Virus record (IMG/VR): IMGVR_UViG_2547132254_000003
Coordinates: 1 to 33,007 of that record
Direction: 5' to 3' (one strand)
DNA length: 33,007 nucleotides
From: a virus
Taxonomy: Duplodnaviria > Heunggongvirae > Uroviricota > Caudoviricetes
Notes under the pieces: generated by a model
Seen by the model: the letters and a program-made list of their open reading frames with translations, nothing else
Database searches by the model: none
Told to the model about the DNA's origin: nothing
Shown: positions 10,649 through 16,788 of the stretch, piece by piece
Numbering within the stretch: the first letter of the stretch is position 1
Layout: each line of letters opens with the position of its first letter
Position numbers and translations under genes: made by a program

Positions 10649-11335
10649 ATGACCCCAATAAAAATATTTATGACTATTGCTGATTTCAAACGGCCTAAAT
10701 TGGAGCTCCCAAACGGGGCAAACAAACTACTACTGCACTCTTGCTGTGCTCCATGTTCCGGTGAAGTGATGGAGGCGCTTCAGGCCTCGGGAATCGACTA
10801 CACCATCTTTTTCTACAACCCGAACATTCATCCTCAGAAAGAGTATTTAATTCGTAAGGATGAAAATATTCGCTTTGCTGAACAACACGGCGTGCCGTTT
10901 ATCGATGCTGATTACGACACCGACAACTGGTTTGAACGTGCCAAAGGAATGGAATGGGAGCCTGAGAGGGGGATCCGTTGTACCATGTGTTTTGACATGC
11001 GTTTTGAGCGGACAGCGTTGTACGCTGCTGAAAATGGTTTCAGTGTGATCAGCAGTTCACTGGGCATTTCACGCTGGAAAAATATGCAGCAGGTTAACGA
11101 GTGTGGGCGGCGAGCTGTTGCGCATTATCCGGGTATGGTGTACTGGGATTATAACTGGCGCAAGCAGGGCGGCTCGTCCCGTATGATTGAAATCAGCAAG
11201 CGCGAAAAATTCTATCAGCAGGAATATTGTGGCTGTGTGTATTCTCTGCGCGATACCAATCTACACCGCAAATCTCAGGGACGCCCTCTTATCAAAATTG
11301 GCCAACTCCACTACGGAAAAGAAGAGAAGGAGTGA
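10649..11335 (+). CDS. DUF208/QueH-like protein (epoxyqueuosine reductase-like), 228 aa
   Basis: N-terminal [11 protein letters not shown] cysteine motif and further conserved cysteines (CTMC, CGC) recalled from the QueH family; candidate promoter TTGACA ... TACACT in the upstream intergenic region, so it looks like a moron. Confidence 0.5.
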
Positions 11336-11514
11336 TTTTATGGATCACCTTTCTGATTGATTTTATATTGGCGAGGTAACGGGAGTTAAGTAGAATGGCT
11401 GCGGGTGCTTGAGGCTATCTGTCTCAGGCATGAACACCAAAGGCAGATAGAGAAAAGCCCCAGTTAACATTACGCGTCCTGCAAGACGCTTAACATTAAT
11501 CTGAGGCTCAATCT

Positions 11515-11727
11515 ATGAACGGCAAATCTAGGTTAGCCTCTTACGTGCCGAAAGGCAAGGAGAAGCAGGCTATGAAGCAGCAAAAGGCGATGTTAATCGC
11601 CCTGATCGTCATCTGTTTAACCGTCATTGTGACGGCACTGGTAACGAGGAAAGACCTCTGCGAGGTACGAATCCGAACCGGCCAGACGGAGGTCGCTGTC
11701 TTCACAGCTTACGAACCTGAGGAGTAA
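11515..11727 (+). CDS. mok: Mok-like in-frame leader ORF overlapping hok, 70 aa
   Basis: In-frame upstream extension of the Hok ORF with GAGG upstream, analogous to chromosomal mokC/hokC organisation. Confidence 0.45.
   Translation: MNGKSRLASYVPKGKEKQAMKQQKAMLIALIVICLTVIVTALVTRKDLCEVRIRTGQTEVAVFTAYEPEE
11572..11727 (+). CDS. hok: Hok/Gef-family type I toxin, 51 aa
   Basis: MKQQKAMLIALIVICLTVIVTALVTRKDLCEVRIRTGQTEVAVFTAYEPEE: single TM helix plus the conserved RKDLCEV-IRTGQTEVAVFTAYE core of Hok/Gef; AAGGAG upstream of the ATG. Confidence 0.8.
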   Translation: MKQQKAMLIALIVICLTVIVTALVTRKDLCEVRIRTGQTEVAVFTAYEPEE

Positions 11728-11790
11728 GAGACCTGGCGGGGGAGAAATCCCTCGCCACCTCTGATGTGTCAGGCATCCTCAACGCACCCG

Positions 11791-11799
11791 CACTTAACC
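11791..11799. repeat. Left copy of the 9-bp target site duplication (CACTTAACC) of IS10
   Basis: Identical 9-mer immediately flanks both ends of the IS10 element. Confidence 0.8.
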
Positions 11800-13128
11800 C
11801 TGATGAATCCCCTAATGATTTTTATCAAAATCATTAAGTTAAGGTAGATACACATCTTGTCATATGATCAAATGGTTTCGCCAAAAATCAATAATCAGAC
11901 AACAAAATGTGCGAACTCGATATTTTACACGACTCTCTTTACCAATTCTGCCCCGAATTACACTTAAAACGACTCAACTGCTTAACGTTGGCTTGCCACG
12001 CCTTACTTGACTGTAAAACTCTCACTCTTACCGAACTTGGCCGTAACCTGCCAACCAAAGCGAGAACAAAACATAACATCAAACGAATCGACCGATTGTT
12101 AGGTAATCGTCACCTCCACAAAGAGCGACTCGCTGTATACCGTTGGCATGCTAGCTTTATCTGTTCGGGCAATACGATGCCCATTGTACTTGTTGACTGG
12201 TCTGATATCCGTGAGCAAAAACGGCTTATGGTATTGCGAGCTTCAGTCGCACTACACGGTCGTTCTGTTACTCTTTATGAGAAAGCGTTCCCGCTTTCAG
12301 AGCAATGTTCAAAGAAAGCTCATGACCAATTTCTAGCCGACCTTGCGAGCATTCTACCGAGTAACACCACACCGCTCATTGTCAGTGATGCTGGCTTTAA
12401 AGTGCCATGGTATAAATCCGTTGAGAAGCTGGGTTGGTACTGGTTAAGTCGAGTAAGAGGAAAAGTACAATATGCAGACCTAGGAGCGGAAAACTGGAAA
12501 CCTATCAGCAACTTACATGATATGTCATCTAGTCACTCAAAGACTTTAGGCTATAAGAGGCTGACTAAAAGCAATCCAATCTCATGCCAAATTCTATTGT
12601 ATAAATCTCGCTCTAAAGGCCGAAAAAATCAGCGCTCGACACGGACTCATTGTCACCACCCGTCACCTAAAATCTACTCAGCGTCGGCAAAGGAGCCATG
12701 GATTCTAGCAACTAACTTACCTGTTGAAATTCGAACACCCAAACAACTTGTTAATATCTATTCGAAGCGAATGCAGATTGAAGAAACCTTCCGAGACTTG
12801 AAAAGTCCTGCCTACGGACTAGGCCTACGCCATAGCCGAACGAGCAGCTCAGAGCGTTTTGATATCATGCTGCTAATCGCCCTGATGCTTCAACTAACAT
12901 GTTGGCTTGCGGGCGTTCATGCTCAGAAACAAGGTTGGGACAAGCACTTCCAGGCTAACACAGTCAGAAATCGAAACGTACTCTCAACAGTTCGCTTAGG
13001 CATGGAAGTTTTGCGGCATTCTGGCTACACAATAACAAGGGAAGACTCACTCGTGGCTGCAACCCTGCTTACTCAAAATCTATTCACACATGGTTACGTT
13101 TTGGGGAAATTATGAGGGGATCTCTCAG
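11800..13128 (+). mobile_element. IS10 (IS4 family), 1329 bp, intact, with terminal inverted repeats
   Basis: Left end CTGATGAATCCCCTAATGATTTT (IS10 outside end), right end reverse complement CTGAGAGATCCCCTCATAATTTCCCC (inside end); length 1329 bp; flanked by a perfect 9-bp direct repeat. Confidence 0.9.
11907..13115 (+). CDS. IS10 transposase, 402 aa
   Basis: Full-length ORF, MCELDILHDSLYQFCPELHLKRLN... matching my recollection of IS10/Tn10 transposase almost residue for residue; no frameshift or stop. Confidence 0.9.
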   Translation: MCELDILHDSLYQFCPELHLKRLNCLTLACHALLDCKTLTLTELGRNLPTKARTKHNIKRIDRLLGNRHLHKERLAVYRWHASFICSGNTMPIVLVDWSDIREQKRLMVLRASVALHGRSVTLYEKAFPLSEQCSKKAHDQFLADLASILPSNTTPLIVSDAGFKVPWYKSVEKLGWYWLSRVRGKVQYADLGAENWKPISNLHDMSSSHSKTLGYKRLTKSNPISCQILLYKSRSKGRKNQRSTRTHCHHPSPKIYSASAKEPWILATNLPVEIRTPKQLVNIYSKRMQIEETFRDLKSPAYGLGLRHSRTSSSERFDIMLLIALMLQLTCWLAGVHAQKQGWDKHFQANTVRNRNVLSTVRLGMEVLRHSGYTITREDSLVAATLLTQNLFTHGYVLGKL

Positions 13129-13137
13129 CACTTAACC
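13129..13137. repeat. Right copy of the 9-bp target site duplication (CACTTAACC) of IS10
   Basis: Identical to 11791-11799. Confidence 0.8.
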
Positions 13138-13208
13138 CGCTTCGGCGTTTTTTCCGTTGATTAACTCTAGTTATTAGAGAACCGAACTTTTATTGATGGG
13201 GCAGGGAG

Positions 13209-13601
13209 ATGAAGAAACTTGTTTTAGTCGCAGGTGTAATGATTGCAACAGTAATGTTGGGAGGGTGTGCAGCAAAGATCGATCCAGCGTTGAAAGCAGA
13301 AGCAATGAAGCCACTAACATGTAATGATGAAAAGCAATGTGACTTTTATTGGAAACGAGCGCAATTCTGGTTGGCTAATAATTCCTCATGGAAAATTCAA
13401 ACGGCGACAGACACGCTAATTTCCACTTATAATCCCTCTCCAAATAGTCCATTCCTCGCTTATCAAGTGAGTAAAATGCCAAATGAAGATGGATCCTCAA
13501 GAATTTTCATCAAGCCTTTTTGCGATAATATGTTTGGCTGTCAACCAAACCCCTATCAGGCAGTTGTTTCCTTTAAAAACTTCGTTAAAACAGGGCAGTA
13601 G
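13209..13601 (+). CDS. Predicted lipoprotein, 130 aa, unknown function (moron)
   Basis: Signal peptide with lipobox LGGC; two extra cysteine pairs (CNDEKQC and CDNMFGC) suggesting periplasmic disulfides; GGGAG upstream; own terminator downstream; AT-rich surroundings. Confidence 0.6.
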   Translation: MKKLVLVAGVMIATVMLGGCAAKIDPALKAEAMKPLTCNDEKQCDFYWKRAQFWLANNSSWKIQTATDTLISTYNPSPNSPFLAYQVSKMPNEDGSSRIFIKPFCDNMFGCQPNPYQAVVSFKNFVKTGQ

Positions 13602-13800
13602 TGTATAGCTTGGACGATAAATTATTAGTGAAAACGCCGTAAACCCTCACCCAATGTGGACTAAGTCTATCAAACATGACTGTGATGATTAGTCCGTAGT
13701 TGTTGTCTATGAAATCTGGATTGAGTCAGGGTTTAATCCAATAATTATTCTATCGTTCCTTTACAAGTCCGGTATATTACTTTCAGTTTGTTTTAGCATA

Positions 13801-13824
13801 CCCGCTTCGGCGGGTTTTGTTTTT
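13801..13824 (+). terminator. Rho-independent terminator (CCCGC-TTCG-GCGGG plus T-run)
   Basis: Perfect 5-bp GC stem with UUCG tetraloop followed by TTTTGTTTTT. Confidence 0.6.
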
Positions 13825-13896
13825 CCTGGCATTCTGGTTTACAATTCGCACGCCAGCCTGAACAACTGGCACCTGCTGCGCCAGCAGAGACAACCG

Positions 13897-16478: not shown

Positions 16479-16554
16479 GGCCCTTTAGCTCAGTGGTGAG
16501 AGCGAGCGACTCATAATCGCCAGGTCGCTGGTTCAAATCCAGCAAGGGCCACCA
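16479..16554 (+). tRNA. tRNA with anticodon CAU, Ile2 (lysidine)-like, 76 nt, CCA encoded
   Basis: Cloverleaf folds by eye; anticodon loop CUCAUAA; close to my memory of E. coli ileX. Ile versus Met cannot be decided from the anticodon alone. Confidence 0.75.
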
Positions 16555-16555
16555 G

Positions 16556-16632
16556 CCGCCACTAGCTCATCAGGAAAGAGCGTCAACCCTTTAAGTTGAG
16601 TGTGCGAGGTTCGAGTCCCCGGTGGCGGTCCA
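16556..16632 (+). tRNA. tRNA-like gene, 77 nt, noncanonical anticodon loop; identity uncertain
   Basis: All stems pair except one A-C mismatch in the T-stem; anticodon loop CCUUUAA has C at position 33 (normally U), giving nominal anticodon UUU; begins with C1-G72. Confidence 0.5.
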
Positions 16633-16634
16633 GT

Positions 16635-16710
<76 letters not shown>

Positions 16711-16713
16711 TAT

Positions 16714-16788
<75 letters not shown>

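What the first reader, a model, noticed from the sequence alone, without database searches (positions are those of the whole stretch)
13140..13830. Lipoprotein moron with its own terminator, next to the IS10 insertion
A 130-aa predicted lipoprotein with two extra cysteine pairs sits in an AT-rich island ending in a strong terminator. Small lipoproteins in lambdoid prophages are often host-interaction or superinfection-exclusion factors (for example Bor, Cor). This one shows no similarity to those that I can see.
Basis: inference. Interest (0 to 1): 0.4.

Follow-up and report, generated by a model that had tools for sequence, protein, structure and literature searches.

The report
Prophage moron encoding an orphan lipoprotein
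A small self-contained gene cassette in a lambda-like prophage encodes a predicted outer-membrane lipoprotein. It belongs to a large, unnamed family carried mostly by phages and mobile elements, and probably protects the lysogen's envelope (for example against other phages), though its function is untested.

Summary
ORF 13209-13601 (+) encodes a 130-aa protein with a textbook lipoprotein signal (MKK, hydrophobic core, LGGC; Cys20; Ala at +2). It has four further cysteines that are invariant or nearly so across the family. The gene sits in a 39.8% GC island (window 49.5%) that ends in a strong terminator at 13800-13825. An IS10 (11800-13128, 9-bp duplication CACTTAACC) lies 80 nt upstream.

The moron reading is supported:
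- The cassette is absent from the hokD-rem junction of K-12 Qin.
- About 5% of complete E. coli genomes carry it, at that junction in 54 of 55 close IMG/VR copies.
- The same hairpin-leader-gene unit sits at other positions, mostly the tail-tip module, in Enterobacter and Pantoea prophages.

The protein is under purifying selection (dN/dS 0.04-0.14). It belongs to a family of about 1,140 50%-identity clusters with no Pfam model and no name. The AlphaFold model is confident (pLDDT 94) but has no significant structural match. The protein is unrelated to Bor, Cor or Llp beyond the signal peptide.

Ten of 14 relatives' contexts are phage or integrative-element DNA, often next to gpI/gpJ or the repressor. 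Function is inferred, not shown: most likely an envelope-protecting or superinfection-exclusion lipoprotein of a new family. Interest is moderate.

The parts
11791..11799 (.). Left copy of the 9-bp target-site duplication CACTTAACC made by the IS10 insertion
   Evidence: Sequence reading. The uninterrupted locus L001 has a single copy.
11800..13128 (+). IS10 (1329 bp). The outside end CTGATGAATCCCC is on the left and the inside end on the right. The 402-aa transposase is at 11907-13115. This is context, not part of the cassette.
   Evidence: RNA-OUT Rfam hit at 11845-11914 (-), 97 bits. The junction with the lipoprotein cassette is found in 0 of 5426 complete E. coli genomes.
13129..13137 (.). 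Right copy of the 9-bp target-site duplication CACTTAACC
13134..13153 (+). 5' boundary hairpin of the cassette: AACCCGCTTCGGCG plus a T-run. It is a decayed copy of the hok terminator (3-bp stem instead of 6).
   Evidence: K-12 Qin has the intact AACCCGCTTCGGCGGGTTTTTTG after hokD. The same hairpin, intact, starts the cassette in Enterobacter (L007) and Pantoea (L010) prophages. The fold here is weak: -6.8 kcal/mol, z = -1.29.
13154..13208 (+). Conserved leader with a purine-rich ribosome-binding region (GGGGCAGGGAG) directly before the ATG
   Evidence: The leader aligns with those of L007, L010 and L071 at different phage positions. Relatives carry an extended -10-like TGnTAGGAT, while the window has TATTAG without TG. 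The promoter scan finds nothing here. The 82-nt leader is 100% identical in most E. coli copies.
13209..13265 (+). Type II (lipoprotein) signal peptide, residues 1-19: MKK, hydrophobic core, and the L-G-G of the lipobox
   Evidence: PS51257-type rule matched at residues 10-20.
13266..13598 (+). Mature lipoprotein, residues 20-130. Cys20 (13266-13268) is the predicted lipidation site and Ala21 predicts outer-membrane sorting. The CX5C pairs are C38/C44 (13320-13340) and C105/C111 (13521-13541).
   Evidence: Translation. Invariant cysteines. AlphaFold2 model with pLDDT 93.8 and pTM 0.81, a helix / 4-5-strand antiparallel sheet / helix domain. dN/dS 0.04-0.14. PHROG 16082 matched full length, E = 2.9e-84.
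13599..13601 (+). Stop codon TAG
13602..13799 (+). About 200-nt AT-rich 3' untranslated stretch (35.9% GC) of unknown role
   Evidence: No significant RNA structure (z = -0.63), no Rfam hit and no ORF of note. Relatives have their terminator only 20-70 nt after the stop. Some E. coli copies differ in its first ~50-90 nt.
13800..13825 (+). Intrinsic terminator: ACCCGC-TTCG-GCGGGT followed by TTTGTTTTTC. It repeats the 13-nt ACCCGCTTCGGCG of the 5' hairpin.
   Evidence: Terminator scan. Fold -13.1 kcal/mol, z = -2.78.

Best explanation
What is shown. Bases 13134-13825 form a self-contained accessory cassette (a moron) that sits in the terminator region of the prophage's hokD gene, upstream of the rem-like / DUF968 / rusA / Q genes. 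It encodes a 130-aa prolipoprotein.

What follows from established rules. The signal peptide should be cut by signal peptidase II at Cys20 and the cysteine lipidated. With Ala at +2, the Lol system should move the protein to the inner leaflet of the outer membrane. There a 111-residue alpha/beta domain faces the periplasm. The four conserved cysteines presumably form two disulfides, each closing a CX5C loop.

What is inferred. The protein most likely benefits the lysogen rather than the virion. It probably binds an envelope component, either the periplasmic face of an outer-membrane protein or the incoming tail tip or tape-measure apparatus, and so blocks infection by other phages. That would be superinfection exclusion in the manner of Llp, Cor or Rtp45, but with an unrelated and larger protein. 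The conserved disulfide-closed loop C-x-N-x-F-G-C is the best candidate for the contact site.

How the E. coli copy may be expressed. It has no good promoter of its own, and its 5' hairpin has decayed. It may therefore be transcribed by read-through from the hok unit or from early phage transcripts. In this window the IS10 insertion would cut that link.
For: Moron status:
- The cassette is absent from the co-linear K-12 hokD-rem junction.
- It is present in 255 of 5426 complete E. coli genomes, and at that same junction in 54 of 55 close IMG/VR copies.
- GC is 39.8% against 49.5% for the window.
- It has its own terminator.
- The same hairpin-leader-gene unit lies between the tape-measure gene and gpM in Enterobacter and upstream of gpI/gpJ in Pantoea; in P. 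ananatis the gene with a similar leader but no hairpin lies between gpI and gpJ.

Lipoprotein in an oxidising compartment:
- The lipobox rule is met, Cys20 is invariant, and +2 is Ala in 109 of 135 relatives.
- Four further cysteines are invariant or nearly so.
- All named relatives come from Proteobacteria.

A real, folded protein: dN/dS 0.04-0.14 and pLDDT 93.8.

Positions typical of a lysogen-benefit or exclusion role. Of 14 distinct contexts of relatives:
- 6 are in or beside lambda-like tail-tip genes.
- 1 overlaps the stop codon of a CI-like repressor gene.
- 1 is convergent with a repressor gene next to a diversity-generating retroelement.
- 1 is in a prophage between divergent operons.
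- 1 is in an integrase element beside a restriction-modification system.

Published precedent. Phage lipoproteins encoded next to receptor-binding genes do exclude phages by binding the periplasmic side of the receptor: Llp-FhuA (PMC9586334), Rtp45-LptD (bioRxiv 10.1101/2025.07.07.663478) and the mEp lipoproteins (PMC11893012).
Against: - No experiment or homology links this family to any function. Every database name is 'hypothetical' or 'prophage protein'.
- The mature domain is unrelated to Llp, Cor, Bor or mEp021 gp81, and at about 12 kDa is twice the size of known exclusion lipoproteins.
- In E. coli the gene is in the nin region, about 20 kb from J. It occurs with at least two different J receptor-binding ends, so it is not tied to the prophage's own receptor.
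- No promoter is detected in the E. coli copy, so expression in the lysogen is unproven.
- Some relatives carry a PDZ domain, and some lie in contexts that are not clearly phage. The domain's basic role may therefore be more general.
- Disulfide pairing and membrane orientation are predictions.
Confidence: 0.4

Rival explanations
1. Periplasmic inhibitor or immunity protein. The disulfide-closed loops would plug the active site of an enzyme that acts in the periplasm. Candidates are a lysozyme or peptidoglycan hydrolase (host, phage-tail or predator derived), a bacteriocin, or a type VI effector. The analogy is with Ivy or MliC lysozyme inhibitors and T4 Spackle.
For: - Two invariant CX5C loops, one with a strongly conserved C-x-N-x-F-G-C motif.
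- A lipid-anchored periplasmic location is predicted.
- Members occur in defence-type neighbourhoods: beside a restriction-modification system and beside Fic genes.
- Fusions to PDZ, a peptide-binding module common in periplasmic protease systems.
- This overlaps with the best explanation if the target enzyme belongs to an incoming phage tail.
Against: - There is no sequence or fold match to any known inhibitor or immunity family. Foldseek against PDB and BFVD gives nothing at E <= 1e-3, PADLOC gives nothing and Pfam gives nothing.
- No cognate toxin or enzyme gene is consistently adjacent in the contexts read.
Confidence: 0.2
2. Host-interaction or virulence factor of the Bor type. The lipoprotein would change the cell surface to raise serum resistance, adhesion or survival in an animal host.
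For: - The E. coli copies come from many pathogenic or animal-associated isolates such as APEC, ETEC and porcine strains.
- Prophage morons of this size (Bor, Lom) have such roles. An Ail/Lom-family gene is annotated after J in the five carrier prophages whose tail regions were read.
Against: - The protein is unrelated to Bor.
- With Ala at +2 it is predicted to face the periplasm, not the surface.
- Relatives occur in environmental Proteobacteria such as Thiobacillus, Rhodanobacteraceae, Variovorax, Cupriavidus and Pantoea. This argues against an animal-host-specific role.
- A prophage serum-resistance study that surfaced in the search (PMC7724020) concerns other genes.
Confidence: 0.1
3. A phage lytic-cycle function rather than a lysogen benefit, for example an accessory factor for tail-tip assembly, DNA ejection or lysis. 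This would explain the frequent position among tail-tip genes.
For: Six relatives lie within or beside the H-M-L-K-I-J block.
Against: - The position inside the block varies: H-M, I-J, or before I.
- The gene is flanked by its own hairpin and terminator there, and it is missing from most lambda-like tail clusters, including this window's and K-12's.
- In E. coli it sits in the early nin region.
- A lipid-anchored periplasmic protein cannot be a virion part.
- The spanin and lysis genes are present separately.
Confidence: 0.08
4. A decaying or non-functional passenger ORF with no current role.
For: - No promoter is detected in the E. coli copy.
- IS elements have landed just upstream in two independent strains.
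- Frameshifted or truncated copies exist (P0012, P0006, P0013).
Against: - Strong purifying selection.
- The gene is 96-100% conserved in E. coli copies, while the neighbouring rem-like gene varies 84-100%.
- The family is very large, with invariant cysteines, and the predicted fold is confident.
Confidence: 0.03

Closest known systems
Superinfection-exclusion lipoproteins Llp (T5), Cor (N15, phi80, HK022, T1) and Rtp45 (Rtp)
   Same: All are phage-encoded with a type II signal peptide and are predicted or shown to be outer-membrane anchored and periplasm-facing. Relatives of this gene, like those genes, lie beside receptor-binding tail genes. This is the proposed way of working.
   Different: There is no homology beyond the signal peptide (the PHROG Cor hit covers only residues 1-43 at E = 0.009). 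The mature part is 111 aa with two predicted disulfides and an alpha/beta fold, against about 6 kDa for those proteins. The E. coli copy is about 20 kb from J and occurs with two J types. No target is known.
Lambda Bor (serum-resistance lipoprotein moron)
   Same: A small prophage-encoded lipoprotein in a moron with its own transcription signals.
   Different: Only 19 signal-peptide columns align, and there is no Pfam Bor hit. The position in the phage genome also differs.
mEpimmI phage exclusion lipoproteins (Lpp021/gp81, Lpp010)
   Same: Lipoproteins encoded within the structural or tail gene cluster that exclude phages using OmpA or LamB (PMC11893012).
   Different: gp81 is 72 aa and aligns with the family profile only over the signal peptide.
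PHROG families 16082 and 4186
   Same: The protein matches phrog_16082 over its full length (E = 2.9e-84) and phrog_4186 over residues 27-126 (E = 2.3e-8). This is the only catalogue entry that holds it.
   Different: Both PHROGs are annotated 'unknown function', so membership adds no mechanism.
Two-helix / antiparallel-sheet domains such as BamC N-domain, Francisella Flpp3 and KA1 / AMPK-alpha C-terminal domain
   Same: Similar overall architecture. Two of them (BamC, Flpp3) are also bacterial lipoproteins.
   Different: The matches are not significant: best E about 0.01-0.02, TM 0.4-0.5, sequence identity at most 17%. No homology can be claimed.
Pfam DUF6491
   Same: 13 of 72 family members give weak hits (best E = 0.0048).
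   Different: The hits score far below the 27.5-bit cut-off and cover only the signal peptide and first ~50 residues. The window protein gives no hit.

Membership tests
Bacterial lipoprotein (type II signal peptide, PROSITE PS51257 type) | Positively charged N-region, uncharged hydrophobic core, and a lipobox [LVI][ASTVIG][GAS]C with the Cys at position 15-35 | tested here: met
   MKK / LVLVAGVMIATVM / LGGC with Cys20 matches the rule at residues 10-20. Cys20 is invariant in 72 relatives, and 135 of 163 family sequences match.
Bacterial lipoprotein (type II signal peptide, PROSITE PS51257 type) | Actual cleavage by Lsp, acylation, and outer-membrane sorting (no Asp at +2) | not testable with these tools
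   Only the sequence rule could be checked: +2 is Ala here and in 109 of 135 relatives. SignalP, LipoP and experiments were not available.
Moron (accessory cassette in a phage genome, in the sense of Hendrix and colleagues; definition from my own knowledge) | Present in some phages and absent from the same junction of otherwise co-linear relatives | tested here: met
   K-12 Qin goes straight from the hokD terminator to the rem region. The cassette is present in 255 of 5426 E. coli genomes.
Moron (accessory cassette in a phage genome, in the sense of Hendrix and colleagues; definition from my own knowledge) | Base composition different from the surrounding phage genes | tested here: met
   39.8% GC against 49.5% for the window, and 50-58% just downstream.
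Moron (accessory cassette in a phage genome, in the sense of Hendrix and colleagues; definition from my own knowledge) | Own terminator | tested here: met
   13800-13825, dG -13.1 kcal/mol, z = -2.78. Relatives also have a terminator 20-70 nt after the stop.
Moron (accessory cassette in a phage genome, in the sense of Hendrix and colleagues; definition from my own knowledge) | Own promoter, active in the lysogen | tested here: inconclusive
   There is no sigma-70 consensus match in 13129-13208. Relatives carry TGnTAGGAT in the conserved leader, while the window has TATTAG. Expression itself cannot be tested here.
Cor / Llp superinfection-exclusion lipoprotein family | Homology of the mature protein | tested here: not met
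   hhalign of the family profile against T5 Llp and N15 Cor aligns 18-19 signal-peptide columns only. The PHROG Cor hit has E = 0.009 and covers residues 1-43 only.
Cor / Llp superinfection-exclusion lipoprotein family | Gene adjacent to the receptor-binding tail gene | tested here: not met
   In the window and in 54 of 55 close E. coli copies the gene lies between hokD and rem. Relatives in other genera are next to gpI, gpJ, gpM or gpH.
Cor / Llp superinfection-exclusion lipoprotein family | Blocks infection by binding the outer-membrane receptor | not testable with these tools
   This needs plating and adsorption assays and binding studies.
Lambda Bor family | Homology to Bor (Pfam Lambda_Bor) | tested here: not met
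   No Pfam hit. hhalign aligns only 19 signal-peptide columns.
PHROG 16082 | Full-length profile match | tested here: met
   E = 2.9e-84, residues 1-130 against profile positions 1-130 of 130. The family has no annotated function.
Pfam DUF6491 | Score above the gathering cut-off (27.5 bits) over the domain | tested here: not met
   No hit for the window protein. The best relatives reach 12-17 bits over N-terminal residues only.
Known anti-phage defence systems (PADLOC-DB) | Match to any defence-system protein model | tested here: not met
   0 families at E <= 1.

The most novel reading that the evidence does not exclude
The gene is the E. coli representative of a large, uncatalogued family (about 1,140 50%-identity clusters) of phage- and mobile-element-borne outer-membrane lipoproteins, with a fold that has no significant structural match. 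In this reading the family is a new class of envelope-level anti-phage or entry-exclusion factor. It would act through a disulfide-closed loop on a target not yet known, either an outer-membrane protein or an incoming tail-tip enzyme. The PDZ-fused and tandem versions would extend the same principle.
Probability: 0.3. Interest if true: 0.65.

Novelty: new variant of a known kind. Interest (0 to 1): 0.4.

Why it matters
Prophage lipoproteins that act from the periplasmic side of the outer membrane are a proven but thinly sampled way to exclude phages. Only a few small families (Llp, Cor, Rtp45, the mEp lipoproteins) have been studied.

This family is far larger than its 'hypothetical protein' label suggests. 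It has no Pfam model and a confidently predicted fold with no significant structural match. It also keeps turning up in the positions where exclusion and lysogenic-conversion genes sit.

If it does exclude phages, it would add a new protein class to envelope-level defence, and help explain phage-resistance patterns in about 5% of E. coli genomes. If not, it is still a well-defined domain worth cataloguing.

Tried and rejected
- Family libraries. Pfam, NCBIfam and PADLOC scans of the protein gave nothing meaningful.
- Pfam on relatives. Scanning 72 diverse relatives gave only sub-threshold N-terminal DUF6491 hits. These were rejected as driven by the signal peptide.
- PDB by sequence. Profile searches with two alignments gave nothing.
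- Structure searches. Foldseek with two models against PDB and with one against BFVD gave no hit at E <= 1e-3. The KA1, BamC and Flpp3 resemblances were rejected as architecture-level only.
- Known lipoproteins. Direct profile comparisons with Bor, Llp, Cor and mEp021 gp81 aligned the signal peptide only.
- Hidden RNA in the 200-nt 3' stretch. There is no Rfam hit and the fold z-score is -0.63, so this was rejected.
- Own promoter. The consensus scan was negative.
- Linkage to one J receptor-binding type. Four of five carriers share a type and one differs, so there is no strict linkage in a small sample.
- Wider locus retrieval. The broad alignments A3 and A6 had no stretch conserved enough to search with. 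A degenerate DNA motif scan of species-representative genomes gave only 6 hits, 4 of them real.
- Literature. Four searches, one by RefSeq accession, found no paper on this protein or family. PMC7724020 (prophage serum-resistance genes in APEC) concerns other genes.
Full report
**The observation**

The region holds one convincing ORF, 13209-13601 on the + strand, 130 aa. Its N-terminus is MKK, then the uncharged hydrophobic stretch LVLVAGVMIATVM, then LGGC. This satisfies a PROSITE PS51257-type lipobox rule with Cys20 as the lipidation site and Ala at +2. Besides Cys20 there are four cysteines, C38, C44, C105 and C111, forming two CX5C pairs.

The cassette is 39.8% GC against 49.5% for the window, and 50-58% just downstream. 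It ends in ACCCGC-TTCG-GCGGGT plus a T-run at 13800-13825, with dG -13.1 kcal/mol and z = -2.78.

Eighty bases upstream of the ATG is the inside end of an IS10 at 11800-13128. It has a 402-aa transposase and an RNA-OUT Rfam hit, and is flanked by 9-bp repeats CACTTAACC.

**Is it a real gene?**

Close relatives (66-84% identity) occur in Enterobacter, Pantoea and Phytobacter. Wherever synonymous divergence is not saturated, dN/dS is 0.04-0.14. The exact protein is recorded on at least 1000 contigs, always as 'hypothetical' or 'prophage protein'.

**Is it a moron?**

- *Presence and absence.* The uninterrupted locus (E. coli AR_0077, L001) reads QueH-like gene, hokD, this gene, a 92-aa rem-like gene, DUF968 (YdfU-like), rusA, Q. 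In K-12 Qin, hokD runs into its terminator AACCCGCTTCGGCGGGTTTTTTG and then the rem region, with no cassette.
- *Boundaries.* Here the same 13-mer ACCCGCTTCGGCG flanks the cassette. The upstream copy has lost two G's, leaving a 3-bp stem (-6.8 kcal/mol). The downstream copy is intact.
- *Frequency in E. coli.* 255 of 5426 complete genomes carry at least 80% of the cassette, as do two induced-prophage records. In 54 of 55 close IMG/VR copies it lies between hok and rem. The gene is 96-100% conserved, while the adjacent rem-like gene varies 84-100%.
- *Mobility.* In Enterobacter (between the tape-measure gene and gpM) and Pantoea (after an antirepressor gene, before gpI/gpJ), the gene is preceded by the same CCCGCTTCGGYGGGTTTT hairpin and an alignable ~65-nt leader. 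In a further viral contig (before gpI/gpJ) the hairpin is diverged but the leader aligns. A terminator follows the gene directly, or a second lipoprotein gene does.

The unit therefore moves as hairpin-leader-gene-terminator, which is moron anatomy.

The one classic feature not shown is a promoter. Relatives have an extended -10-like TGnTAGGAT in the leader, but the E. coli copy has TATTAG, and the consensus scan finds nothing.

**The family**

A profile of the close relatives, run against 1.84 billion representative proteins, finds 1,140 clusters at E <= 1e-3 and 532 at E <= 1e-10. Most are 125-140 aa.

In 72 diverse members, Cys20, C38, C44 and C105 are invariant and C111 is at least 90% conserved. 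The motifs QCDxYWxRAQxW and CxNxFGC stand out. The lipobox rule holds for 135 of 163 sequences, and most exceptions are truncated.

No Pfam model reaches significance on any of the 72; the only hits at E <= 0.01 are two sub-threshold DUF6491 matches. More permissive scans show further weak N-terminal DUF6491 hits, all below the cut-off. NCBIfam and PADLOC give nothing for the window protein. PHROGs holds the family as phrog_16082 (full length, E = 2.9e-84), with phrog_4186 a weaker match. Both are 'unknown function'.

Some members add a C-terminal PDZ domain. One is a tandem duplication of the domain, and some carry a Cys-rich tail. Named sources are all Proteobacteria: Enterobacterales, Thiobacillus, Rhodanobacteraceae, Variovorax, Cupriavidus and an alphaproteobacterium.

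**Structure**

With the 72-sequence alignment, AlphaFold2 gives pLDDT 93.8 and pTM 0.81. The order of elements is a short helix, a strand ending at C38, a long helix starting near C44, four or five antiparallel strands (the last ending at C105), the C105-C111 loop, and a C-terminal helix.

Foldseek finds nothing at E <= 1e-3 in PDB or BFVD. The best weak matches, at TM 0.4-0.5, are KA1 / AMPK-alpha C-terminal domains, BamC and Francisella Flpp3. PDB sequence searches are empty. I could not read the model coordinates, so the disulfide pairing (most simply C38-C44 and C105-C111) is an inference.

**Comparison with known phage lipoproteins**

Profile comparisons with lambda Bor, T5 Llp, N15 Cor and the mEp021 exclusion lipoprotein gp81 align only the 18-19 signal-peptide columns.

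**Gene neighbourhoods**

I read fourteen distinct contexts of relatives.

| Context | Number |
|---|---|
| In or beside lambda-like tail-tip genes (I-J; H-M; two before I/J; K...I/J beside a Fic moron; one relic beside a gpM fragment) | 6 |
| Overlapping the stop codon of a CI-like HTH repressor gene, in an element with an integrase | 1 |
| Convergent with an HTH repressor gene, next to a diversity-generating retroelement | 1 |
| In a prophage between divergent operons, behind another lipoprotein gene | 1 |
| Among many small same-strand genes with no family hits | 1 |
| PDZ-fused member in an integrase element beside a restriction-modification system | 1 |
| Not clearly phage (one next to SNF2/SWIM genes; one in a Fic / H-NS island; one next to a methyltransferase) | 3 |

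These are the places where lysogenic-conversion and exclusion genes are usually found. Published work shows that phage lipoproteins encoded beside receptor-binding genes exclude phages by binding the periplasmic side of FhuA or LptD, and that the mEp phage lipoproteins exclude OmpA- or LamB-dependent phages, although how they act was not determined (PMC9586334; bioRxiv 10.1101/2025.07.07.663478; PMC11893012).

In E. coli the gene is about 20 kb from J. Four of five carriers share one J C-terminal type, and the fifth, with a 99.9% identical cassette, has another (51% identity). There is thus no strict tie to the prophage's own receptor, though the sample is small.

**Most likely mechanism**

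*Shown:* a mobile cassette encoding a conserved, folded protein with a lipoprotein signal.

*From established rules:* cleavage and acylation at Cys20, Lol sorting to the outer membrane because +2 is Ala, and oxidation of the four cysteines in the periplasm.

*Inferred (about 0.4):* the domain binds an envelope protein or an incoming tail component and protects the lysogen, most probably by superinfection exclusion. The invariant disulfide-closed CxNxFGC loop is the likely contact.

*Rivals:*
- A periplasmic enzyme inhibitor or immunity protein (0.2). This overlaps with the best explanation if the target belongs to a phage tail.
- A Bor-like host-interaction factor (0.1). The environmental relatives and the predicted periplasmic orientation weaken it.
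- A lytic-cycle accessory role (0.08).
- A dead passenger ORF (0.03). Selection contradicts it.

**Effect of the IS10**

The element landed in the hok 3' region just before the cassette hairpin. It leaves the 80-nt leader intact but separates the gene from upstream transcription, and separates hok mRNA from its terminator. No complete E. coli genome in the collection has this junction, so the insertion is private to this strain. If the E. coli copy depends on read-through across its decayed hairpin, the IS10 would lower its expression. This is untested.

**Verdict**

The new information is that the gene is not an isolated oddity. It represents a large, unnamed lipoprotein family that is mostly phage- and mobile-element-borne, lacks a Pfam model and has no structural relative. 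It is a sound candidate for a new exclusion or envelope-protection family. Nothing here demonstrates the function, so interest is moderate (0.4).

Noticed in passing
window 11403-11799 and 13129-13153: The IS10 insertion splits a hok/sok-type locus. The sok Rfam hit is at 11403-11577 (110 bits) and the 51-aa hokD ORF at 11572-11727. The IS10 sits ~70 nt after the hok stop and cuts the hok mRNA off from its terminator. The hok mRNA 3' end is known to control its folding and translation, so the toxin-antitoxin module is probably deregulated or dead here.
   Followed up: partly
L017:1-330 (IMGVR_UViG_2537561932_000021): In another strain an IS3-family element ends 7 nt before the ATG of the same lipoprotein gene and replaces the leader. 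Homology to the window starts at 13202. This is a second, independent IS insertion immediately upstream of the gene. It could reflect a hot spot or selection on expression.
   Followed up: partly
L010:6374-6721, L071:5374-5784, L011:5662-5997: In several relatives the gene is paired with a second, unrelated lipoprotein gene (phrog_914, phrog_890, phrog_10370). In two of them the stop and start overlap (TGATATG). Phage morons can thus carry small lipoprotein clusters.
   Followed up: partly
proteins P0034, P0101, P0103, P0111, P0114, P0129, P0117, P0079; L085:166-1068: Domain variants of the family: domain plus C-terminal PDZ, a tandem duplication (P0117), and a shared Cys-rich C-terminal extension (P0079 and the Cupriavidus copy).
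   Followed up: partly
window 13134-13147 and 13801-13813; L007 and L010 just upstream of the gene: The 13-mer ACCCGCTTCGGCG of the hok terminator flanks the cassette as a direct repeat. It also forms the 5' boundary of the cassette in Pantoea, and with one mismatch in Enterobacter, in prophages at positions where no hok gene was called. This suggests recombination at a shared terminator hairpin, or capture of the hok 3' end with the cassette.
   Followed up: partly
window 10649-11335 and 16479-16788: The prophage also carries a gene annotated in the homologous locus as epoxyqueuosine reductase QueH, and downstream of Q a cluster of four tRNA genes. ARAGORN calls them Met(CAT), Lys, Thr and Gly. 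RefSeq calls the first Ile in strain AR_0077.
   Followed up: no
window 13602-13799: An unusually long (~200 nt), 36% GC untranslated stretch lies between the stop codon and the terminator. Relatives have 20-70 nt there. It has no Rfam hit and no significant fold, and some E. coli copies differ in its first ~50-90 nt. It could be a remnant of a lost second gene.
   Followed up: partly
L090-L094 (E. coli carrier prophages, J genes): The J proteins of five carrier prophages are 97-98% identical over the first 800 residues but fall into two C-terminal types (51% identity over the last 200). This is a clean example of receptor-binding-end swapping. An Ail/Lom-family gene follows J in all five.
   Followed up: partly
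cluster of the window protein: The 90%-identity cluster that holds this protein (1137 members, with an 87-aa fragment as representative) also lists many 70-aa Hok toxins. This is probably a clustering artefact from fused or mis-called ORFs across the hok-lipoprotein junction. It makes the protein hard to find by cluster representative.
   Followed up: no
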